Of a DNA stretch of 8,239 nt, positions 1 through 8,239 are shown in pieces. Below the pieces are notes generated by a model. That model was not told the DNA's origin and searched no databases. It saw only the letters and a list, made by a program, of their open reading frames with translations. Source of the DNA: a virus (taxonomy: Duplodnaviria > Heunggongvirae > Uroviricota > Caudoviricetes); IMG/VR virus record IMGVR_UViG_3300014921_000099, positions 1 through 8,239 of that record; one strand, 5' to 3'. A program made the translations under genes and the position numbers. How positions within the stretch are numbered: position 1 is the stretch's first letter; every line of letters starts with the position of its first letter.

Positions 1-144
1 GTCTCGGAAGTCACGTTTACTCAGGACCAGAACGGCACCCTGACGGAAATCCGTGTCGGCCCGCCTGATGCTTATCTGCCTGAACCCGAAGCCCCCGGCG
101 CGCGGAAAAAGAAAAAAGCCAGAGTACAGGAGGACCCGTTCTGA
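1..144 (+). CDS. 3' end of an upstream phage tail/baseplate gene (partial; start lies outside the window)
   Basis: Frame 1 is open from base 1 to a TGA at 142-144 that overlaps the ATG at 144 of the next gene (TGATG coupling). Composition is GC-rich like the downstream tail genes. Product cannot be assigned from 47 residues. Confidence 0.45.
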   Translation, partial: VSEVTFTQDQNGTLTEIRVGPPDAYLPEPEAPGARKKKKARVQEDPF

Positions 145-692
145 TGAGGACGATTGAAGCCATGCAGCGACAACTTCTCGGCCTGATTGGGCGGGCCGTG
201 GTGAAAAGCATCAGTGCCGCCACGAAATGTCAGACCGTGGATGTGTCCCTGATTGCCGGTGAACCCAAAGCCGGGGTTGAACATCTTGAACCCTACGGTT
301 TTACCGCAAGGGCAAACAGCGGTGCGGAAGCGGTGGTGTTGTTTCCGGATGGCGACCGTTCTCATGCGGTGGTTGTTACGGTGTCGGACCGGCGCTACCG
401 CCTGAAAGGGCTGCAGACGGGTGAGGTGGCTGTCTATGACGATCAGGGGCAGTCTGTGACGCTGACCCGGGAGGGGATCGTGGTGGACGGTGCAGGGAAA
501 ACGATCACGTTTCGCAATGCAACTGAAGCACGTTTTGAAATGGATCTGGAAGTGACCGGACAAGTGAAAGACCTGTGCGACTCCGGCGGCACCACCATGT
601 CAGCGATGCGGCTTGCCTATAACGGGCATCGTCACAGAGAGAACGGTCAGGGCAGTAACACCGACAAACCTGATAAAGCGATGGAGGCATGA
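144..692 (+). CDS. Baseplate central spike protein (P2 gpV / Mu gp45-like)
   Basis: 182-aa ORF with AGGAGG at 128-133 upstream of ATG 144. Translation has the look of the gpV/gp45 spike family, including an HxH motif ('NGHRHRENG') near the C-terminus, typical of the metal-binding spike apex. Followed by the expected baseplate gene order. Assignment by family recognition, not by search. Confidence 0.8.
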   Translation: MRTIEAMQRQLLGLIGRAVVKSISAATKCQTVDVSLIAGEPKAGVEHLEPYGFTARANSGAEAVVLFPDGDRSHAVVVTVSDRRYRLKGLQTGEVAVYDDQGQSVTLTREGIVVDGAGKTITFRNATEARFEMDLEVTGQVKDLCDSGGTTMSAMRLAYNGHRHRENGQGSNTDKPDKAMEA

Positions 693-1117
693 TGGAACTG
701 TGGCTGACGGTGAACGGTAAACGCACCTGCGCCAGCGCACCGCTGGATCCGCTGACCCGCGCCGTGGTGATTTCCCTGTTCACCTGGCGGCGGGCGGAGC
801 CTGATGACAATGCCGACGTCCCGATGGGATGGTGGGGGGATACCTGGCCTGCGGTACAGAATGACCGTTACGGCTCCCGACTGTGGCTGCTTCAGCGCAG
901 CAAACTGACCAATCAGCTGGTGCAGACGGTAAGGGGATATATCCGCGAATGCCTGCAATGGATGACTGATGACGGCGTGGTGTCCCGTATTGATCTGGAT
1001 ATCCGCCGCACCGGGATTAATGAGCTGGGTAACAGTATCACCCTCTGGCGTCGTGATGGACCAGTAATGATTTCTTTTGATGATCTGTGGAGTGCGATAA
1101 CGCATGGCGGACAGTGA
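689..1117 (+). CDS. Phage GP46-family baseplate protein (Mu gp46-like)
   Basis: 142-aa ORF whose start overlaps the stop of the spike gene (ATGA/TGATG at 689-694). Size and position between spike and baseplate J match Mu-like baseplate modules. Confidence 0.75.
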   Translation: MMELWLTVNGKRTCASAPLDPLTRAVVISLFTWRRAEPDDNADVPMGWWGDTWPAVQNDRYGSRLWLLQRSKLTNQLVQTVRGYIRECLQWMTDDGVVSRIDLDIRRTGINELGNSITLWRRDGPVMISFDDLWSAITHGGQ

Positions 1118-2162
1118 ATTTCAGCGCCCGACGCTGGCAGAAAATATCAGTATGCTCCGTAACGATTTATTCGCCAGGCTGGACGTCAGCGACACGCTCC
1201 GGCGCATGGATGAAGACGTGCGGGCAAAGGTGTATGCGGCGGCGCTGCATACGGTCTACGGTTACATCGATTATCTGGCAATGAATATGCTGCCTGACCT
1301 GTGCGATGAGTCCTGGTTGGCGCGACATGCTGCGATGAAACGGTGTCCGCGCAAGGGAGCCACGGTTGCCAGCGGGTATATGCGCTGGGAAGGTGTCAGC
1401 GATGGCCTGAAGGTGACTGCCGGGAGTGTTATTCAGCGCGATGACCTGGTGCAGTACACGACAACTGACGATGCAATCAGCTCCGGTGGTGTCCTGCGCG
1501 TGCCGATCGCCTGCTCAAGTGCAGGTGCGGTCGGTAACGCTGACGACGGTACGGCATTAATCCTGGTCACGCCGGTGAATGGTCTGCCGTCTTCCGGTGT
1601 GGCTGACACCCTGACAGGCGGATTTGATACTGAAGAGCTGGATACGTGGCGCGCCCGCGTCATTGAGCCGTATTACTGGACGCCGCAGGGCGGGGCTGAC
1701 GGGGACTATGTCGTCTGGGCTAAAGAAGTGCCTGGCATTACCCGCGCATGGACATACCGACACTGGATGGGAACGGGGACTGTCGGTGTGATGATTGCCA
1801 GCAGTGACCTGATTAATCCCATTCCGGAAGAATCAACGGAAACGGCGGCAAGACAACATATCGGGCCACTGGCCCCGGTGGCAGGCTCTGATTTGTATGT
1901 GTTCAGGCCGGTGGCACATACGGTGGATTTTCATATCCGTGTGACGCCGGACACACCGGAAATACGGGCTGCCATCACCGCGGAGTTGCGTTCGTTCCTG
2001 CTGCGTGATGGTTATCCGCAGGGAGAACTGAAGGTGTCACGTATCAGTGAAGCGATTTCCGGTGCGAACGGGGAATACAGCCATCAGTTGCTTGCACCGG
2101 CGGACAATATCACCATTGCAAAAAATGAACTGGCGGTTCTGGGGGCGATTTCATGGACGTGA
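1104..2162 (+). CDS. Baseplate J-like protein (Mu gp47 / P2 gpJ family)
   Basis: 352-aa ORF overlapping the previous gene by 14 nt and the next by 10 nt. Size and position are typical of the baseplate J wedge protein. GC-rich codon usage consistent with neighbours. Confidence 0.8.
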
Positions 2163-2737
2163 CAAACGATGATTACATCCGTCTGTTGTCAGCACTGTTG
2201 CCGCCCGGTCCGGCGTGGTCAGCCAGCGATCCGGCGATTGCCGGTGCGGCACCGTCATTAACCCGCGTTCATCAGCGTGCGGATGCCCTGATGCGGGAGC
2301 TGGATCCGCGCACCACCACCGAACTGATAAATCGCTGGGAGCGTCTGTGCGGCCTGCCGGATGAATGTATTCCTACAGGGACACAGACCCTTCGCCAGCG
2401 TCAGCAACGGCTGGATGCGAAGGTGAACCTGGCGGGGGGCCTCAACGAGAATTTTTATCTTGCACAGCTTGCTGCCCTGGGCAGACCGGATGCCAACATC
2501 ACGCGATACGACAAAAGCACGTTCACCTGCTCATCGGCCTGTACTGACGCGGTGAATGCGCCTGAATGGCGGTATTACTGGCGGGTCAACATGCCAGCCG
2601 CCACCAACACCACCTGGATGACATGTGGCGATCCCTGTGATTCCGCGCTGCGCTTCTGGGGGGACACCGTTGTCGAGTGTGTTCTTAACAAACTCTGCCC
2701 GTCGCATACCTATGTGATTTTTAAATATCCGGAGTAA
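2153..2737 (+). CDS. Tail protein, P2 gpI / Mu gp48 / YmfQ-like (DUF2313 family)
   Basis: 194-aa ORF immediately after baseplate J and immediately before the tail fibre gene, the conserved location of the gpI-like protein. N-terminal '[16 protein letters not shown]' region is characteristic of this family as I recall it. Confidence 0.75.
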
Positions 2738-2740
2738 TCC

Positions 2741-3388
2741 ATGCATCGTATAGACACGAAAACCGCGCAGAAGGATAAGTTCGGCGCGGGTAAGAACGGT
2801 TTTACCCGTGGTAACCCCCAGACCGGCACGCCTGCCACCGATCTGGATGATGACTACTTTGACATGTTGCAGGAGGAGCTTTGCAGCGTTGTGGAGGCAT
2901 CCGGTGCCAGCCTGGAGAAGGGGCGGCATGACCAGCTGCTTACCGCGCTTCGTGCGCTGCTGTTAAGCCGCAAGAATCCGTTTGGCGATATCAAATCGGA
3001 TGGCACGGTGAAAACAGCTCTCGAAAACCTTGGTTTGGGAGAAGCGGCAAAGAGGAATGTGGGGACAGGAGAAAATCAGGTTCCGGATATGAACAGCTTT
3101 GGTAACTCATTGACCGCCAATGGATACCAGAAATTACCTGGGGGGATGATTATTCAATGGGGGAGTTTTTCTGTCTCACCAACCGGAGGAAGTGTTGGAA
3201 CAGTTGATATAACATTACCTGTAGCTTTCCCTGCTGCTTGTCGTTCGGTAAACGCTCTTATTTCAACTAATGATCCTTCTGCCCGTTCTGTGGGCTTTGA
3301 TATTGGAAGTACCAACAGAACCAAAATCAGATTTACTTACACTTCTGCTACAACAAATTCAATTTACTGGATGGCTGTGGGGTATTAA
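2741..3388 (+). CDS. Tail fibre protein: constant N-terminal part (codons 1-~93) fused to the variable C-terminal part currently in the expressed orientation
   Basis: 215-aa ORF. N-terminus '[21 protein letters not shown]...' resembles the conserved N-terminal region of enterobacterial e14/Mu-type side tail fibres. The reading frame runs through the crossover site at 3019-3042 ('LENLGLGE'). GC drops sharply downstream of the site, as expected for a swapped variable domain. Confidence 0.85.
3019..3042. repeat. Invertase crossover site (gix/pix/hix-like), left copy, inside the tail fibre ORF
   Basis: TCTCGAAAACC-TT-GGTTTGGGAGA has imperfect dyad symmetry and closely resembles hix/gix sites (hixL recalled as TTCTTGAAAACCAAGGTTTTTGATAA). 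Its reverse complement shares the core TTGGTTTGGGAGAAG exactly with the site at 4877-4900. Confidence 0.7.
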
Positions 3389-3390
3389 CT

Positions 3391-3822
3391 ATGGAAAAGA
3401 CATATTATTTTAATCCCTCTGATTCGGGATTTTATATTTCACCAGATAGCCAAACCATTCCTGAGAACGCTACGAAAATAAACTTTACTATTTATTCTGA
3501 GTTCGCAGGAGTTGCATGGCCTGATGGTAAAATACTTGGTTCAGATAAAAATGGTTTTCCAGCATGGCAGGATGCGCCACCACTTACCAGCGAAGAATTA
3601 ATCTCAATCGCTGAATCAAATAAACAGCGATTAGTTAATCAGGCCAACGAATACATGAACAGTAAACAATGGCCTGGTAAAGCGGCGATTGGTCGTCTGA
3701 AAGGTGAGGAACTGGCGCAATATAATTTGTGGCTGGATTATCTGGACGCACTGGAACTGGTCGATACTTCCAGTGCGCCAGATATTGAATGGCCTACTCC
3801 TCCGGCAGTTCAGGCCAGATGA
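3391..3822 (+). CDS. Tail fibre assembly chaperone (Tfa / Mu U-like), expressed orientation
   Basis: 143-aa ORF starting 2 nt after the fibre stop. C-terminus '...LDYLDALELVDTSSAPDIEWPTPP' is the conserved Tfa C-terminal motif. Confidence 0.85.
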   Translation: MEKTYYFNPSDSGFYISPDSQTIPENATKINFTIYSEFAGVAWPDGKILGSDKNGFPAWQDAPPLTSEELISIAESNKQRLVNQANEYMNSKQWPGKAAIGRLKGEELAQYNLWLDYLDALELVDTSSAPDIEWPTPPAVQAR

Positions 3823-4396
3823 CATCCGGCGCGGTACTGGTATCTGTTGCCGTCACCGCGTCAATGTAATCCAGCACAGTGTTAAGTCGGGTGGTCTCTG
3901 CCTGCATCAGCTTCCGCCCGGCCTGCAATTTCAGTTGAATCAGACTAATGGAAGCCATTGCAGTATCAATCAGTGACTGACGTTGTGCTTCTGCCGCGTC
4001 TACTGCGGCGCTATGCTGTGTCTCAGTATCCGTTACCCATTTCTCACCATCCCATTTATCGTATGGCGTTAACGGGGCGATAGTGGTTGTTTTTTCGGGG
4101 TAATCACCCGGAGTTGTGATTTCTTTGGCGTCTCCCGTTTCGGTGTTATAGACGATTTCACCGCGATGGTCTGGTACATATTCCCATGAGTTAAAATCTG
4201 CAGAGCGGCAGATTGCATAACCAGCTTTGTAGGTGCCTGGAGCATCTAAACAGGAATATGCCGGAATGCCGACACCAACAGCAAGATATTCAGTTGAAGC
4301 TGAAATATACTCCCGACTCATGACGTCAAAGTTATAAACAGTAATTTCTCCTGCCATAGTGGCAATTAATTCACTGTTTAATTCTGCGTTATTCAT
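3794..4396 (-). CDS. Alternate tail fibre assembly chaperone (Tfa' / Mu U'-like), silent orientation
   Basis: 200-aa ORF on the - strand. C-terminus '...LDYIDAVTATDTSTAPDVIWPELPEE' is the same conserved Tfa motif. Start ATG overlaps the stop of the alternate fibre cassette (TAATG at 4394-4398). Its 3' end overlaps the + strand tfa convergently by 29 nt. Confidence 0.8.
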   Translation of the reverse strand: MNNAELNSELIATMAGEITVYNFDVMSREYISASTEYLAVGVGIPAYSCLDAPGTYKAGYAICRSADFNSWEYVPDHRGEIVYNTETGDAKEITTPGDYPEKTTTIAPLTPYDKWDGEKWVTDTETQHSAAVDAAEAQRQSLIDTAMASISLIQLKLQAGRKLMQAETTRLNTVLDYIDAVTATDTSTAPDVIWPELPEE

Positions 4397-4900
4397 TATG
4401 CAGCCCTCACAATATAGTTAAAAGCGACATTTCGTGGGCGTGTTTCATTCGCACCTGCAGGTTTAGTCGTTGCCGCAACAACACCACCCTCTGTAATAGC
4501 CGGGTTGGGAATTGGGTAATTATCGAAGTCAATGGCTGGAGACAGGGGCGTGATTTGTTTTAAAATCGTGGTGCCTGTAAAACTTTCCAGAGTCTGGTCG
4601 TTAGTTCGTGAAGTCCAGATTCCCCAATAGTGGTTATGACTGACAATCGCACCGTCCTGAAGCGTTAATAATCCCCTTCCGTTATCCACTCCACGCCCGT
4701 CATCCCAGCCACGAATAAACTCACCACGTAAATCAGGCAATTTATTTGTCGGATAAGCCTTTGCCAGTTCCGGGTATTCTTCAGCAGAAAAAGCGGCACC
4801 GTTGCATTTCAGCCAGCCTGTTGGCGGAGTGGCGGAAGGCCACGGAACAGGCACACCAACGGGGAATGCAGAACCTTCTCCCAAACCAACGTTTAAGAAA
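4396..4900 (-). CDS. Alternate tail fibre C-terminal (receptor-binding) cassette, promoterless and lacking its own N-terminus; becomes fused to the constant fibre N-terminus after inversion
   Basis: Minus-strand frame is open from the crossover site to the stop at 4396-4398. The frame through the site reads 'FLNVGLGE', matching 'LENLGLGE' at the left site, so inversion gives an in-frame fusion. Contains a typical fibre tip motif 'PVPWP...GWLKCNG...YPEL'. The ORF-track ATG at 4929 is probably not a real start. Confidence 0.75.
4877..4900. repeat. Invertase crossover site, right copy (inverted relative to 3019-3042), just upstream of the invertase remnant
   Basis: TCTCCCAAACCAACGTTTAAGAAA. The first 15 nt are identical to the reverse complement of the left site. 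Position immediately 5' of the invertase start is the canonical arrangement. Confidence 0.7.
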
Positions 4901-4955
4901 ATGCAGAGGTAACAGCTAACTGGCATCATTCCTGCTTTTGTCAGGGGGAGCTACC

Positions 4956-5162
4956 ATGCTTATTGGCTATGTAAGCGTATCAAAAAATGACCAGAACACA
5001 GATCTACAACGTAATACGTTGAACTGTGCAGGATGCGAGTTGATTTTTGAAGATAAGTGGTACAAAGTCCGACAGGCCGGGCTGAAAAAACTGCTCAGGA
5101 CACTATTGGCAGTAGACACTCTGGTTGTCTGGAAGCCGGGTAGCTCAGGAGCAGAACAATAG
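4956..5162 (+). pseudogene. Serine DNA invertase (Pin/Gin/Hin/Cin family), 5'-terminal remnant only; truncated and degenerate
   Basis: Translation from ATG 4956 (GGGGGAG RBS at 4944-4950) gives 'MLIGYVSVSKNDQNTDLQRN..CAGCE.IFEDK', the unmistakable N-terminus of Gin/Pin/Hin invertases. The conserved Arg of the 'GY.RVS' active-site motif is Ser here. Similarity decays after 'DTLVVWK' and the frame stops at 5162 after ~69 codons, where full-length invertases are ~185-190 aa. Downstream DNA is unrelated AT-rich sequence. The ORF-track start at 4938 is a TTG; I prefer ATG 4956. Confidence 0.8.
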
Positions 5163-5345
5163 TAAGCTACTGTGATATGCTGAAGTCTGAGTGTTTTTGC
5201 ACAATATAAGAGTATCCGTGAATTGCACATCGCTATTGATGAGTATATCCATATTACATTAATGAACGTCTGATATACTATAATTTTAGCTATGTCTTTT
5301 ATGATAGAATTAGGAAACAATAAAACATCATTGATGATGTACCTT

Positions 5346-5352
5346 TAAGGAG
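5346..5352 (+). promoter_or_regulatory. Ribosome-binding site of the 377-aa cargo gene
   Basis: TAAGGAG, 5 nt upstream of ATG 5358. Confidence 0.6.
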
Positions 5353-5357
5353 TTTAT

Positions 5358-6491
5358 ATGCTGGAAACAGCTCAAAAGAATGCAGGAAGACCTTATCCTG
5401 ATGCTCTTGTAAATCGCTTCGTTTTAGATATATCTAAGCTAAAGGATGGTGATGTTATCGTAGAGCATGGTTATAGTACTTACAGCCCAACAATTGAAAA
5501 AGTAACTAAGTGTTATTATACGCATGCAATGATTTACCTTGAGGGAACTATTATTGAGGCTACAAGTGACGGTGGCGTGTTTTCTAGAGTTCCCAATAGA
5601 ATAGCTGTTCCATTAGAAAAAGATTTGGTTGTATTAAGATTAAAGAATTCATTAGATCCGTATATTATGAATCTAATAACATCAAGGGCTAGGGAGTTGA
5701 TTGGTTCAAGCTATAGTATAACTGAAGCAGCATCAACACAAATATATAAAAACACTCCTGCTAAAAAAGCAAATATAAAAATCAAACCTAAGAGAAGTCA
5801 ATTCTGTTCTAGACTTGTTGCTCAATGCTATTCTTATGGTGGAGTTAATATAGTCGATAATATAGATTACTGTACGCCGAAGGATATCTTTAACTCTATA
5901 TACTTGCAACCAGTTCATAACGCAATTAAAGAAGGTTCGTCAGAAGAAATCTATCATGCCAATATAGGGGAGTTACATCCTAAACACCTAAAATCTTGTG
6001 TCGCCTGGGTTAAAACTGCAAAAAAAATTCTTGCCAAGCATGATGTTAAAGTTCAAACAATTAATGAAATCATACATGCCGTGGTAAAATTAAATAATAC
6101 CAAAGTCGATAAGGCAGTCTTTAAAGCCATCAATGATAGTGGTTACTTACAAGATTATGTTGATGATCGCATTCAAAATGAATATAGATATAACATAGTA
6201 ATGTTTCTTGATTTTTATAAAAAACAACAAATCTCTATCGAGATGGAAATTGAAAAAGAATTTGGCATTTATAAAACCAGGAAAAGTAATTTTCAAACTT
6301 ATAAGGATATGTATGAAGAACACCCAGCCAGAATAATAAAATGCCATCTTGATCTTGAAAAAAAACTATTAAAAAGCATTCATGAAAGATTAACCATTAT
6401 CCTTACCGTATGTCAGATGTTAGCATTAACCCCGAAAAATATAGCCAAAGCAAAAGAAATATTTATAGATATAAAATTCTTACTTGAATAA
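5358..6491 (+). CDS. Hypothetical two-domain protein: N-terminal permuted NlpC/P60-like (YiiX/DUF830-type) Cys/His hydrolase domain, C-terminal Lys/Glu-rich helical domain of unknown function
   Basis: 377-aa ORF with strong RBS and a rho-independent terminator 10 nt after the stop. About 30% GC against ~60% in the tail genes. N-terminal ~180 aa contain 'DGDVIVEHGY', 'THAMIY', 'IIEATSDGGV' and 'FCSRLV', which I read as the His-before-Cys arrangement of permuted papain-fold enzymes (candidate catalytic H56 and C150). Residues ~190-377 are K/E-rich with no motif I recognise. Domain call is from motif recognition only. Confidence 0.8.
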   Translation: MLETAQKNAGRPYPDALVNRFVLDISKLKDGDVIVEHGYSTYSPTIEKVTKCYYTHAMIYLEGTIIEATSDGGVFSRVPNRIAVPLEKDLVVLRLKNSLDPYIMNLITSRARELIGSSYSITEAASTQIYKNTPAKKANIKIKPKRSQFCSRLVAQCYSYGGVNIVDNIDYCTPKDIFNSIYLQPVHNAIKEGSSEEIYHANIGELHPKHLKSCVAWVKTAKKILAKHDVKVQTINEIIHAVVKLNNTKVDKAVFKAINDSGYLQDYVDDRIQNEYRYNIVMFLDFYKKQQISIEMEIEKEFGIYKTRKSNFQTYKDMYEEHPARIIKCHLDLEKKLLKSIHERLTIILTVCQMLALTPKNIAKAKEIFIDIKFLLE

Positions 6492-6500
6492 TAGATGGTT

Positions 6501-6528
6501 AAAGGCTCGATATTGAGCCTTTTTATTA
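6501..6528 (+). terminator. Rho-independent terminator of the 377-aa gene
   Basis: AAAGGCTC-gatatt-GAGCCTTT perfect 8-bp stem with 6-nt loop, followed by a T-rich run (TTTATT), 10 nt after the TAA stop. Confidence 0.7.
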
Positions 6529-6539
6529 ACAGCGTTTAC

Positions 6540-7020
6540 ATAAGAGATATTACGGAGTGTTTTTGTAAGGAGGGGTTAATAATCACCTTCATTTTTATAT
6601 GGCTCGAACTATGTAGTTGAATGAAATATTACGAGGTCTGACTGTTGCATGGTTAACACCATCGCTAACATATGGATCGGGATAAGGGAATCTGGAAAAT
6701 CCAAAACTGTAATCGACTATACCATCATGATTACTGCATGACCGGAGCCTACGTCAAAGTGCCCAGCATACTGTGTGAAAGATGTTGCTGCTTGAAAACT
6801 AAGTAATGTCATACGATTATCGATTCCTCTTCCATCATCCTAGCCACGAATAAATTCACCACGTGACTCGGGTAATATGCCAGCCGGATAAACCGCGTCT
6901 AATTTTGGATAGATATTTTTATCGAAGGGGCACCGTTATATTTCAGCCAGTCTTCTGGTGGGTTGGGGAGGGGCAACGGCACTGGCAACGCGGAGCCTTC
7001 CTCCAAACCAAAAAATAAAA
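6540..7020 (-). pseudogene. Decayed second copy of the alternate tail fibre C-terminal cassette, with remnant of the tfa' start and of the crossover site
   Basis: Hand alignment shows roughly 65-70% identity between 6590-7012 and 4396-4900, in the same orientation. It includes a crossover-site remnant (CCTTCCTCCAAACCAA at ~6996-7012) and a 'ttcat' junction remnant at 6588-6592. The frame is broken: TGG to TAG in the 'GEFIRGW' region plus indels, and no ORF of 60 aa or more is called here. Upstream of the junction only ~18 codons of a tfa'-like start remain. Confidence 0.6.
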
Positions 7021-7202
7021 ACTAGAAAGCCTGAGTCTGGTGCAATACCGAATTCAGGCTATGGTAACCGCTTACTATCATGTTTGATTTTAAGGAGGCT
7101 GCTTAGAGAAGCGATTTTAACGTTCTTAAGATGAATAACACATAGCTGACGCAAATGTTGTTTGCATTATGCAACATTTATTTATGGGGTATTTCAACCG
7201 AT

Positions 7203-7580
7203 TTAAGCTTTTACTCGGCCTTTAACTCCCGCCATTAGACTATGCTTTCCTTCTAAATCTACGTCAGATGTCCATATTGTGTAATTGCGGCTCTTGCGGC
7301 TAGAGGCAACAATCTTACTCTTAATTTCTCTTGGGGACATGTTCTTTGCTTGAGCTACAAGCACATAGTCTTTGGATGCTTTCTCTACCGCTTTCAATAA
7401 ATTTTCTGTGAGGATTTGTCCGTTGTTACGGCATCTACGAGTATTAAATCGTACAGCAAAATTCAGCGCATCCAGATAATCAGTGCGGATAGTTTCTTCT
7501 TTGAGCATCTGTTGCACGAATTTGCGGGCAGTTTTCGATTTCCCCAATTGTTTCACTACTGCTTGCTTACCGGGCTTCAT
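7203..7580 (-). CDS. Hypothetical small basic protein (125 aa, about a quarter Lys/Arg); possible nucleic-acid-binding protein
   Basis: ORF with a consensus AGGAGG RBS 5 nt upstream of the ATG. Lies 68 nt downstream of, and co-directional with, the 196-aa gene. About 40% GC. No family recognised from the sequence. Confidence 0.65.
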   Translation of the reverse strand: MKPGKQAVVKQLGKSKTARKFVQQMLKEETIRTDYLDALNFAVRFNTRRCRNNGQILTENLLKAVEKASKDYVLVAQAKNMSPREIKSKIVASSRKSRNYTIWTSDVDLEGKHSLMAGVKGRVKA

Positions 7581-7585
7581 ATGTT

Positions 7586-7591
7586 CCTCCT
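7586..7591 (-). promoter_or_regulatory. Ribosome-binding site of the 125-aa gene
   Basis: Minus-strand AGGAGG (plus-strand CCTCCT at 7586-7591) followed by 5 nt and the ATG at 7578-7580. Confidence 0.6.
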
Positions 7592-7648
7592 AACATTCTA
7601 CTAATAAATATTTTATCATAATAGTTCATAAAACACTCAACACAAATA

Positions 7649-8239
7649 TCAGATCAGTTTTGTCAAGAGCTTAGCGCGGGGCAAATTATTTCGCTTCACT
7701 CGAGCTTTGTCTGCAGCATTCAGTGAATAACCAAAAGATTCATATCTTTCAATGAGCTGCTTGTCAGGCCGACTAATATTGACCTGTCTGATACCATATG
7801 CATCAGCGAAACTCTCTGCAATGATTAGCGCAATTGGCATGACGAAACCTTTCAATGGATGATCATATGGATTTCCTTCGAGATATCTAAGTGTTATGCA
7901 GAGCCGTTTTTTAGAACGTCGACCAAGCATCAACCCGCAAAGAAAATCGCGGCATCGAATACTCACATCAATGCGTTTGGTCTGATTACGCCTTTCTTGG
8001 TTCCAGTTGATGTCAATGTAATGCCGTTTTTCTGGAAGACGCCACTCCCTGCTAGCCTCATCTGAGTCTTCATAATAGATGTGACCCAATTTGATTTCAT
8101 TAACCGGCAATCGGTTACCAAACCTTGTAGCAATAGAAAGCATAGCATCTGCGATTGCCTCAGAATAGATTAACTCATGGGTTAGCTCTTCAGTGGGACG
8201 AACTATGCTTGCTTGTACTGACTCCATATCCACTACCAT
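7649..8239 (-). CDS. Hypothetical protein (196 aa or more); N-terminus may extend beyond the window edge
   Basis: Long minus-strand ORF ending at a TGA at 7649-7651. The window ends exactly at the reverse complement of an ATG, so the true start is uncertain. About 40-42% GC. No family recognised with confidence. Confidence 0.6.
   Translation of the reverse strand: MVVDMESVQASIVRPTEELTHELIYSEAIADAMLSIATRFGNRLPVNEIKLGHIYYEDSDEASREWRLPEKRHYIDINWNQERRNQTKRIDVSIRCRDFLCGLMLGRRSKKRLCITLRYLEGNPYDHPLKGFVMPIALIIAESFADAYGIRQVNISRPDKQLIERYESFGYSLNAADKARVKRNNLPRAKLLTKLI

What the first reader, a model, noticed from the sequence alone, without database searches (positions are those of the whole stretch)
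6540..7020. Cargo gene is bracketed by two diverged direct copies of the crossover-site plus fibre-cassette unit
The region 6590-7012 is a frameshifted, nonsense-containing duplicate (about 65-70% identity by hand alignment) of the functional alternate fibre cassette and its crossover site at 4396-4900, in the same orientation, and retains ~18 codons of a tfa'-like start. The cargo therefore sits between the invertase remnant and a second, decayed invertible-region end. This fits either a former multi-cassette shufflon (as in P1/p15B Min-type systems) or a recombination between two prophages' fibre/invertase regions that captured the cargo. Either way, recombination at fibre/invertase sites is a plausible route by which cargo enters this locus.
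Basis: seen in the sequence. Interest (0 to 1): 0.6.

Follow-up and report, generated by a model that had tools for sequence, protein, structure and literature searches.

The report
Decayed fibre cassette travelling with cargo
The dead second tail-fibre cassette next to the cargo gene is real, but it is not a local duplicate: it arrived with the cargo as one 1.75 kb module from the switchable tail-fibre region of another phage family, and its ends lie at the two points where a DNA invertase would cut.

Summary
Window 6595-7011 (minus strand) is a pseudogenised tail-collar fibre-tip cassette. It ends in the inner half-site and AA core of a Pin/Gin-type crossover site (6998-7011), in direct orientation to the intact cassette and site at 4396-4901.

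It is not a duplicate of that cassette, to which it is only 69% identical over 175 nt. Window 5265-7011 (cargo plus cassette) is 90.9% identical over 1765 nt to a block in a Salmonella P2-like prophage. There the block lies between two directly repeated crossover sites of a three-site invertible fibre region, next to an intact invertase, and the cassette is intact.

In the window, homology begins at the core of the first site. It ends within 7 nt of, and including, the core of the second. Both flanks (5140-5264, 7012-7144) match nothing found. The neighbouring pin is an e14-type gene, truncated and frameshifted.

The best reading is that invertase-type strand exchange at the cores moved or isolated the module. 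The route could be a re-inserted excised circle or two core-anchored deletions of a P2-like prophage; this is unresolved.

This is a new variant of known things, of moderate interest.

The parts
2741..3388 (+). Expressed tail-fibre gene (215 aa, gp53-like C-terminus) of the e14-type prophage remnant. Its variable end lies inside the invertible P segment.
   Evidence: Pfam PF21882, E = 3e-18. 98.8% identical to e14-type prophages at icd.
3018..3043 (-). Left crossover site ixL (TTCTCCCAAACC AA GGTTTTCGAGAG, read on the minus strand), inside the fibre gene.
   Evidence: (I3). It is the breakpoint of the inversion seen in L001/L013.
3391..3822 (+). Tail-fibre assembly gene tfa, for the expressed fibre tip.
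   Evidence: Pfam PF02413, E = 4.7e-30.
3794..4396 (-). Alternate tail-fibre assembly gene tfa'.
   Evidence: Pfam PF02413, E = 4.8e-30.
4396..4929 (-). Intact alternate fibre-tip cassette Sv' (tail-collar domain). This is the 'first copy' of the finding.
   Evidence: Pfam PF07484, E = 8.9e-16.
4876..4901 (+). Right crossover site ixR (TTCTCCCAAACC AA CGTTTAAGAAAA), a complete 26-bp site next to pin.
4956..5139 (+). e14-type pin invertase remnant. It has a 5-nt deletion between 5049 and 5050 and a 1-nt deletion between 5081 and 5082. Homology to pinE ends at 5139.
   Evidence: Pfam Resolvase N-terminus, E = 6.5e-6.
5140..5264 (.). Orphan left flank, with no homologue found outside this lineage.
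5265..7011 (.). Imported module of cargo plus third cassette. It is 90.9% identical over 1765 nt to L017 7908-9660 and 89.3% to L033 (window 5265-6985). It runs from the ix2 core to the ix3 core.
5265..5278 (+). AA core plus outer half-site of the donor's ix2 (AA CGTCTGATATAC). This is the left end of the module.
   Evidence: Base-level alignment with L017 and L033.
5358..6491 (+). Cargo gene, 377 aa and ~30% G+C. It has an N-terminal permuted-papain (YiiX/NlpC-P60) domain and a C-terminal all-helical domain.
6501..6522 (+). Hairpin followed by UUUUUAUU; probable intrinsic terminator of the cargo gene.
   Evidence: Fold -11.4 to -12 kcal/mol, z = -2.8. Conserved in L017 and L033.
6536..6592 (-). 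18-codon mini-ORF starting 3 nt after the cassette stop. Only the first ~8 codons are tfa-like. Probably a stub of a tfa displaced when the cargo entered the module.
6595..6997 (-). Pseudogenised third fibre-tip cassette Sv'' (tail-collar type). This is the 'second copy' of the finding.
   Evidence: The intact orthologues are L017 9227-9637 and P0078 (PF07484).
6998..7011 (+). Inner half-site plus AA core of the donor's ix3 (TTCCTCCAAACC AA). This is the right end of the module. The outer half is absent.
   Evidence: Every fibre-gene match from other genomes ends at 7011.
7012..7144 (.). Orphan right flank. It holds a minus-strand hairpin (7030-7060) followed by a T-run; probable terminator of the two-gene unit to its right.
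7145..8239 (-). Two-gene prophage-end module (125 aa at 7203-7580; 196 aa at 7649-8239, which reaches the last base of the window). It is 87% identical to a Klebsiella prophage-end unit and abuts the ssrA attachment site in E. coli.

Best explanation
Window 6595-7011 is a dead tail-collar fibre-tip cassette. It keeps the inner half-site and the AA core of a Pin/Gin/Cin-family crossover site. It belongs to a 1.75 kb module (5265-7011) made of an AT-rich cargo gene with its terminator, an 8-codon tfa stub, and this cassette.

In its native setting the module is the invertase-proximal unit of a multi-site, Min-like invertible tail-fibre region in P2-like prophages. There it is bounded by two directly repeated crossover sites, ix2 and ix3.

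In the window the module is ectopic. It lies downstream of a dead e14-type pin, in a decayed prophage next to ssrA. It begins at the ix2 core and ends at or within 7 nt of the ix3 core, and both sides adjoin unrelated DNA.

The most likely mechanism (inferred) is serine-invertase strand exchange at the 2-bp cores with poor secondary sites. Two routes are possible:
(A) ix2 x ix3 excision as a circle, followed by re-insertion at one secondary site.
(B) Two core-anchored deletions that collapsed a P2-like prophage at ssrA down to its two cargo units.

Once cut off from a fibre gene and an invertase, the cassette decayed.
For: Shown:
- The module is 90.9% identical to L017 over 1765 nt and 89.3% to L033.
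- In L017 it lies between ix2 (7896-7921) and ix3 (9647-9672), both direct, with an inverted ixL in fibre gene H and an intact 185-aa invertase next to it. The cassette there is an intact 136-aa ORF.
- Cargo-less relatives L049 (3 sites) and L048 (4 sites) are 97-98% identical in the flanks and carry the same cassette (P0078, 93% aa).
- Left junction: window CATATTACATTAATG|AA|CGTCTGATATAC against L017 CCTTCTCCCAAACC|AA|CGTTTGATATAC. Right junction: window TTCCTCCAAACC|AA|AAAATAAAAACT against L017 TTCCCCTAAACC|AA|CATTTAGCTAAA.
- The flanks are no more similar to the donor's outer regions than shuffled sequence (p = 0.4-0.9).
- The pin remnant is e14-type, with two frameshifts and a truncation.
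- Lesions in the cassette are mapped.

Supporting variant B:
- The 196/125-aa pair lies beside ogr at the end of E. coli P2-like prophages.
- 186/P2-like prophages integrate between this pair and ssrA.
- The cargo family recurs at the P2 tail-fibre/sheath hotspot, which is described as mixed-purpose and often carrying an invertase (bioRxiv 10.1101/2024.10.15.618418).

Supporting variant A:
- The pair is closer (87% nt) to a Klebsiella prophage end in which it lies ~3 kb downstream of an invertase.

Established knowledge: these enzymes cut at a central dinucleotide of a 26-bp site (table in PMC4134206). Cin uses quasi-sites chosen by the central dinucleotide (Iida & Hiestand-Nauer 1987, cited in PMC4134206).
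Against: - No empty target site was found, and no P2-like prophage carrying both the module and the pair.
- The presumed secondary half-sites are poor: about 4/12 and 5/12 matches to the corresponding donor/window half-sites, counted by eye from the and 54 sequences.
- Wild-type Hin-family invertases strongly favour inversion over deletion or fusion (my own knowledge of the enhancer/Fis topological filter).
- Only two independent native copies of the module are known (Salmonella L017/L018 and the metagenome contig L033).
- The right breakpoint is resolved only to a 7-nt stretch (AAACCAA) that includes the core.
- The L017 prophage is not at ssrA and has no pair after ogr.
Confidence: 0.6

Rival explanations
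1. In-situ decayed multi-cassette shufflon. On this view the e14-type prophage once had a third cassette and site downstream of pin, so that pin and the cargo lay inside a larger invertible segment, and the outer parts have since decayed.
For: ixL and the half-site at 6998-7011 are in inverted orientation, as such a design needs. Hin of Salmonella lies inside its own invertible segment (my own knowledge). Multi-site systems exist in relatives.
Against: - 208 E. coli genomes carry the e14-type region over at least 80% of window 1-4900. The two closest that were inspected (98.8%) have pinE-mcrA-icdC, and no E. coli match to 4300-7200 extends past pin except in the six cargo-bearing genomes.
- The cassette and cargo are 87-91% identical to a P2-like prophage module in which the invertase lies on the other side.
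- The outer half-site is missing and there is no fibre sequence beyond 7011.
- The left end of the module carries its own core and outer half-site (5265-5278), which this model does not explain.
Confidence: 0.07
2. Homologous recombination between the fibre/invertase regions of two prophages captured the cargo. The conserved cassette 5' ends and sites would have served as the homology.
For: Cassette 5' ends are 70-87% identical over ~200 nt across phages. Exchange of fibre modules at this locus is reported.
Against: Homologous exchange would leave hybrid but continuous fibre or invertase sequence across the junction. Here both junctions adjoin DNA with no detectable similarity to any fibre, invertase or P2 sequence. 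The native e14 ixR-pin junction is untouched.
Confidence: 0.08
3. Ordinary illegitimate deletions or insertions unrelated to invertase chemistry, whose ends fall at the crossover cores by chance or because selection kept only the cargo.
For: This decaying prophage shows other unrelated deletions: IS3-linked truncations at different points (window 4039, 5013, 6818) and the pin truncation at 5139. The secondary half-sites look random.
Against: The left breakpoint falls within 0-2 nt of the core and the right one within a 7-nt stretch that includes it. If breakpoints were free over several hundred nt on each side, my rough estimate of the joint chance is about 1e-3 or less (reasoning; no formal test was run). 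Selection for the cargo does not explain why the useless cassette was kept exactly up to its core.
Confidence: 0.2
4. Local tandem duplication of the cassette and site at 4396-4900, followed by divergence.
For: Same orientation, and ~70% identity in the 5' part.
Against: Much closer relatives exist elsewhere: 87% to the Salmonella third cassette, with the whole 1.75 kb block at 90.9%, and 78-79% to E. coli P2-like fibres. The central part does not align with 4396-4900 at all.
Confidence: 0.02

Closest known systems
e14 P region with Pin and the downstream cargo mcrA (E. coli K-12 type)
   Same: Window 1-4900 is 98.8% identical to e14-type prophages: Mu-type baseplate, a 215-aa fibre, tfa/tfa', an alternate cassette, 26-bp sites and pin. 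As in e14, a cargo gene follows pin near the prophage end.
   Different: Here pin is truncated and frameshifted and mcrA is absent. The cargo arrives with a third, foreign cassette and a half-site. The element lies next to ssrA, not icd.
Multiple inversion systems with one invertase and more than two sites (Min of plasmid p15B; P1 Cin / Mu Gin as the two-site forms)
   Same: The donor arrangement (L017, L048, L049) has 3-4 crossover sites with AA cores, several tail-collar cassettes and one Hin-family invertase.
   Different: In L017 a non-structural cargo gene lies between two cassettes, inside the region that can invert. I know of no description of this for Min, Cin or Gin (own knowledge; not found). 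In the window itself only two complete sites remain.
P2 Z/fun cargo hotspot between the tail-fibre genes and the sheath gene FI
   Same: Cargo homologues (50-54% identical) occupy exactly this position in Citrobacter-type P2-like prophages. The hotspot is reported to mix receptor-binding modules, defence-like cargo and invertases.
   Different: The window's copy is outside any P2 backbone. The point of interest is the core-precise ends of the module, which that work does not describe.
Cin/Gin recombination at secondary (quasi) crossover sites (Iida & Hiestand-Nauer 1987)
   Same: Exchange between a true site and a poorly matching site that shares the central dinucleotide. Here both junctions keep an AA core (reference cited in PMC4134206).
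   Different: Those were laboratory inversions and cointegrates. Here the event is only inferred from natural sequence, and the product is a relocated or isolated cargo module.
sopE moron in the tail-fibre region of the P2-like phage SopEPhi, a Fels-2 relative that integrates at ssrA (Mirold/Pelludat/Hardt; from memory, papers not held)
   Same: A cargo cassette lies beside tail-fibre/invertase sequences of a P2-like prophage and moves between unrelated phage families. The ssrA locus is shared.
   Different: I could not check the junction details of sopE. Whether its ends lie at crossover cores is unknown to me.

Membership tests
Hin/Gin/Cin/Pin-family 26-bp crossover site | Inner 12-bp half-site plus the central dinucleotide | tested here: met
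   6998-7011 TTCCTCCAAACC AA matches 12/14. There are three such matches in the window against 0.07 expected.
Hin/Gin/Cin/Pin-family 26-bp crossover site | Outer half-site forming an imperfect inverted repeat of the inner half | tested here: not met
   7012-7023 AAAATAAAAACT matches about 5/12 of ixR's outer half (CGTTTAAGAAAA), counted by eye. It lacks the conserved (C/G)nTTT motif.
Hin/Gin/Cin/Pin-family 26-bp crossover site | Evidence that the site recombines (alternative orientations among genomes) | tested here: not met
   ixL x ixR inversion is seen in L001/L013. No rearrangement at 6998-7011 appears in the assemblies inspected.
Tail-collar fibre-tip cassette (PF07484) | Homology to tail-collar fibre C-termini | tested here: met
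   tblastn E = 1e-22 to the window's own cassette. Orthologues P0078/P0079 carry PF07484.
Tail-collar fibre-tip cassette (PF07484) | Intact reading frame that can be fused to the fibre gene | tested here: not met
   Two frameshifts, one nonsense codon and a 12-nt deletion.
Tail-collar fibre-tip cassette (PF07484) | Cognate tail-fibre assembly gene downstream | tested here: inconclusive
   Only ~8 tfa-like codons remain, too short for statistics. The cargo-less relative L049 has no tfa after this cassette.
Multiple-inversion (Min-like) fibre switch | Three or more crossover sites and several cassettes served by one adjacent intact invertase | tested here: not met
   In the window there are two complete sites, one half-site and a dead pin. 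The feature is met in relatives L017 (3 sites), L049 (3) and L048 (4).
P2 Z/fun-hotspot cargo | Position between tail-fibre genes H/G and sheath gene FI of a P2-like phage | tested here: not met
   No P2 backbone gene lies in or next to the window. The feature is met for the orthologous module in L017 and for homologues in L019-22 and L036.
Site-specifically mobilised gene cassette (integron-like circle) | Excised circular intermediate and an identifiable empty target site | not testable with these tools
   No read data were available. Searches for an empty site found only filled sites.

The most novel reading that the evidence does not exclude
Crossover sites of tail-fibre DNA invertases act as a cassette-exchange system. 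A cargo gene embedded between two directly repeated sites of a multi-site fibre switch would be excised by the invertase as a circle, together with a fibre cassette, and re-inserted at weak secondary sites. This would move defence-type cargo between unrelated prophage families (P2-like to e14-like), in a way that resembles integron cassettes.
Probability: 0.25. Interest if true: 0.75.

Novelty: new variant of a known kind. Interest (0 to 1): 0.5.

Why it matters
How accessory ("moron") genes get into and move between phage genomes is largely unexplained. The usual answers are illegitimate or relaxed homologous recombination.

Here a cargo gene and a fibre cassette form a unit whose ends lie at or within a few bases of the two cleavage points of a serine invertase. 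The same unit occurs inside a working-looking multi-site fibre switch in another phage family. This gives a concrete, testable route for cargo movement at the tail-fibre hotspot.

It also shows that a cargo gene can sit inside an invertible fibre region, so its orientation and upstream context may change with the switch.

If the junctions turn out to be coincidental, what remains is ordinary: a decayed fibre cassette in a decaying prophage.

Tried and rejected
- Empty target site. I looked at all contexts of the exact 125-aa protein. I scanned metagenome contigs with the right-flank hairpin, which gave one hit, a filled site. I scanned viral contigs with left- and right-flank words and found nothing.
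- More copies of the module. A word from the module's left end gave no hit in viral contigs or genome contigs. The search for related loci with the cargo protein in genome contigs found nothing. Phage and plasmid collections hold only distant cassette matches, all ending at window 7011.
- Origin of the orphan flanks 5140-5264 and 7012-7144. Sensitive blastn against every fetched locus, and shuffle-controlled local alignment against the donor's outer regions, the e14 pin region and the P2 ogr intergenic region, all gave chance-level scores.
- Whether the Salmonella donor prophage sits at ssrA with the 196/125-aa pair after ogr. It does not.
- Extending the locus leftwards through the baseplate J protein.
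- PADLOC, NCBIfam and Pfam gave nothing for the 125-aa and 196-aa proteins. tblastn of the 196-aa protein against phage records found nothing.
- Rfam gave no match in the window.
- The simple promoter/terminator scan did not report the two hairpins I treat as terminators, so I folded them separately.
- The paper on SopEPhi and ssrA could not be read.
- Considered and dropped: a path of two invertase inversions with a secondary site. By my own working-through of the site halves it would leave the module inverted relative to pin, which is not what is seen.

Full report
CONTEXT

The window is the right end of a decayed e14-type prophage. ORFs 144-2737 are Mu-type baseplate proteins (gp45, gp46, baseplate J, gp48/YmfQ). 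They are followed by a 215-aa fibre gene, two tail-fibre assembly genes and a tail-collar cassette. Window 1-4900 is 98.8% identical to complete e14-type prophages at icd, which continue with pinE, mcrA and the icd remnant.

In the window, pin is a remnant. It is 95% identical to pinE up to 5139, with a 5-nt and a 1-nt deletion inside, and then the homology stops.

To the right lie, in order:
- 125 nt with no homologue (5140-5264);
- an AT-rich cargo gene (5358-6491, about 30% G+C);
- the region of the finding;
- another 133 orphan nt (7012-7144);
- two minus-strand genes (125 aa and 196 aa).

In E. coli genomes that share this DNA, the tmRNA gene ssrA follows a few hundred bases further on. 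Only 6 of 5,426 complete E. coli genomes carry the cargo. All have it at ssrA, and all are truncated on the left by IS3. Draft assemblies L008 and L014 have the window's full arrangement.

blastn aligns 4682-4853 with 6817-6987 on the same strand, 69% identical over 175 nt, E = 2e-13. The repeat finder gives the same register.

The intact cassette protein hits 6601-7021 in three minus-strand frames with one in-frame stop, summed E = 1e-22. The half-site motif occurs three times in the window against 0.07 expected. There is no ORF of 60 aa or more in 6540-7020.

Three details need correcting:
- Only the 5' ~220 nt align as DNA.
- The second site keeps only its inner half and the AA core.
- Of the 18-codon ORF (6536-6592, minus), only about 8 codons look like a tfa start.

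IT IS NOT A LOCAL DUPLICATE

The nearest E. coli relatives of 6615-7011 are expressed fibre genes of P2-like prophages, at 78-79%. That is already closer than the window's own cassette.

The cargo protein has an 89%-identical homologue in Salmonella enterica (P0002). Its contig (L017, extended as L052) decides the matter. Window 5265-7011 aligns to L017 7908-9660 at 90.9% over 1765 nt. A metagenome contig, L033, aligns at 89.3%.

L017 is a P2-like prophage with this order:
- fibre gene H(+), with an inverted site ixL;
- tfa(-);
- a tail-collar cassette(-);
- site ix2;
- the cargo(+);
- a second tail-collar cassette(-), an intact 136-aa ORF;
- site ix3;
- an intact 185-aa invertase(+);
- sheath gene FI.

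All three sites have AA cores. ix2 and ix3 are direct repeats. So in its native place the cargo lies inside a three-site invertible fibre region, bracketed by two cassette-plus-site units.

Cargo-less relatives share 97-98% identical flanks and the same third cassette (P0078, 93% aa). L049 has 3 sites and L048 has 4, with different cassette orders. This is what a Min-like multiple inversion system would produce. In L049 the cassettes abut: the stop codon of the third cassette lies inside the outer half of ix2. In L017 the ~1.3 kb cargo unit sits between 5 nt past the ix2 core and the last codon of that cassette.

Relative to the intact orthologues, the window's copy has a 12-nt deletion, two frameshifts and a TGG>TAG change. 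L033's copy has decayed independently, and no site was detected at its ix3.

THE JUNCTIONS

Base-level alignment gives:
- Left: window CATATTACATTAATG|AA|CGTCTGATATAC..., L017 CCTTCTCCCAAACC|AA|CGTTTGATATAC..., L033 ATCTCCTAAACC|AA|CGTTTGATATAC.
- Right: window ...TTCCTCCAAACC|AA|AAAATAAAAACT, L017 ...TTCCCCTAAACC|AA|CATTTAGCTAAA.

Homology therefore starts within 0-2 nt of the ix2 core. It ends within a 7-nt stretch that contains the ix3 core.

The DNA outside is no more similar than shuffled sequence to the donor's outer half-sites, cassettes, invertase leader, the e14 pin region or a P2 ogr intergenic region (p = 0.1-0.9). It has no match in any collection searched. Every cassette match from other genomes also stops at 7011.

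The module thus has the form [core + outer half of ix2 ... inner half of ix3 + core]. Strand exchange at the central dinucleotides would produce exactly this form. These enzymes cut at the central dinucleotide of a 26-bp site (PMC4134206). That paper also cites the use of quasi-sites chosen by the central dinucleotide for Cin.

TWO ROUTES FIT, AND I CANNOT SEPARATE THEM

Variant A. ix2 x ix3 excision gives a circle, which then fuses with a secondary site ATTACATTAATG AA AAAATAAAAACT downstream of pin. On this view the two orphan flanks were once contiguous, and the 196/125-aa pair was the terminal cargo of the e14-type element. In support, the pair is 87% identical to a Klebsiella prophage end where it lies about 3 kb downstream of an invertase.

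Variant B. A P2-like prophage sat at ssrA and lost everything except its two cargo units, through two deletions that each end at a crossover core. In support:
- The pair lies between the host junction and ogr in E. coli P2-like prophages, in the same orientation relative to the host junction as in the window.
- 186/P2-like prophages integrate between this pair and ssrA with int distal. That the ogr end is therefore proximal to ssrA is my inference from the standard P2 map.
- The module's native home is the P2 fibre/sheath hotspot.

Against both variants:
- The secondary half-sites are poor.
- Wild-type invertases of this family favour inversion (own knowledge).
- No empty site or intermediate was found.
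- The L017 prophage is neither at ssrA nor followed by the pair.

A path of two inversions would leave the module inverted relative to pin, so I dropped it (own reasoning).

RIVALS

- An in-situ decayed shufflon of the e14-type element is unlikely. The inspected e14-type relatives have no third cassette, the invertase is on the other side in the native module, and the module has its own left-hand core.
- Homologous exchange between fibre regions would leave continuous homology across the junctions, which is absent.
- Local duplication is excluded by the closer orthologues.
- Chance placement of ordinary deletions remains possible. My rough estimate of the joint chance is about 1e-3 or less. 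This prophage has other, unrelated deletions (IS3-linked ends at 4039, 5013 and 6818; pin cut at 5139).

THE CARGO

The 377-aa protein has an N-terminal permuted-papain (YiiX/NlpC-P60) domain:
- profile hit to PDB 3kw0, E = 6.6e-10, and to YiiX 2if6;
- Foldseek probability 1.0 to the same two structures;
- invariant H56 and C150.

Its C-terminal ~190 residues are all-helical and have no structural match. The model has mean pLDDT 89.

Homologues at 50-54% identity lie at the P2 fibre/sheath hotspot and next to an EcoRII restriction system. A role in phage exclusion is a reasonable guess, but nothing here tests it. PADLOC has no match.

COMPARISON AND VERDICT

The parts are all known kinds: e14 Pin with downstream cargo, Min-type multi-site fibre switches, the P2 Z/fun hotspot, and quasi-site recombination by Cin.

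Two things I did not find described:
- a cargo gene embedded between cassettes of a multi-site fibre switch;
- a cargo-plus-cassette unit whose ends lie at the invertase cleavage points in an unrelated prophage.

I rate this a new variant of a known kind, with interest 0.5. The homology and anatomy are firm. The invertase-mediated mechanism is inferred, at about 0.6 confidence.

Noticed in passing
window 3018-4901; L001 8007-9020; L013 8524-9537: In some genomes of this lineage (CP062871, CP055015) the P segment between ixL and ixR is inverted relative to the window. They nevertheless share the same truncated, frameshifted pin, with no gaps over 4875-8239. The inversion must therefore have been done in trans by another prophage's invertase, as reported for EC958 Phi4 (PMC4134206).
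   Followed up: yes
window 7203-7580(-) and 7649-8239(-); L038-L047: The 125-aa and 196-aa genes form a recurrent two-gene unit at prophage ends. In E. coli it lies between the host gene yegQ and ogr of P2-like prophages. In Klebsiella it follows umuDC next to host yedK. There is no Pfam, NCBIfam or PADLOC match. It is probably an uncharacterised prophage accessory system.
   Followed up: partly
window 5358-6491: The cargo protein has a permuted-papain (YiiX/NlpC-P60) N-terminal domain with invariant H56 and C150, and a C-terminal helical domain with no structural match. Homologues are scattered through Enterobacterales, Vibrio, Aeromonas and Pseudomonas. They often lie at the P2 fibre/sheath hotspot, and once next to an EcoRII restriction system.
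   Followed up: partly
L033 2770-2800: In the metagenome copy of the module no crossover site was detected next to the invertase. By eye, about 13 nt are missing relative to an e14-type site. Its third cassette has decayed independently. So the module has been locked in place at least twice.
   Followed up: partly
L031 6705-6794 (window ~6818): In assembly UGCL01000001 the IS3-linked deletion reaches into the decayed cassette (window 6818) and has removed the cargo. IS3 sits at different window positions in different genomes (4039, 5013, 6818).
   Followed up: partly
L007, L011, L015, L016 (right of the 196-aa gene): A 186/P2-like prophage or a P4-like satellite is inserted between the 196-aa gene and ssrA in some genomes. 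The ssrA attachment site has therefore been used again after this remnant formed.
   Followed up: partly
L008 1-4800 (left of the window): In the fullest copy of the remnant, the HNH, small and large terminase genes are followed almost directly by baseplate genes. The head and most tail genes have been deleted.
   Followed up: no
window 5270-5284: TATACT and TATAAT hexamers lie inside the retained outer half of ix2, about 75 nt upstream of the cargo start codon. If this is the cargo promoter, its -35 region lies across the crossover core and would change with each recombination. The simple promoter scan did not call it.
   Followed up: no
L048 and L049 (Salmonella P2-like prophages): These closely related prophages differ in the order and number of tail-collar cassettes (4 sites against 3). 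This is consistent with an active multi-site inversion system in Fels-2-like phages.
   Followed up: partly
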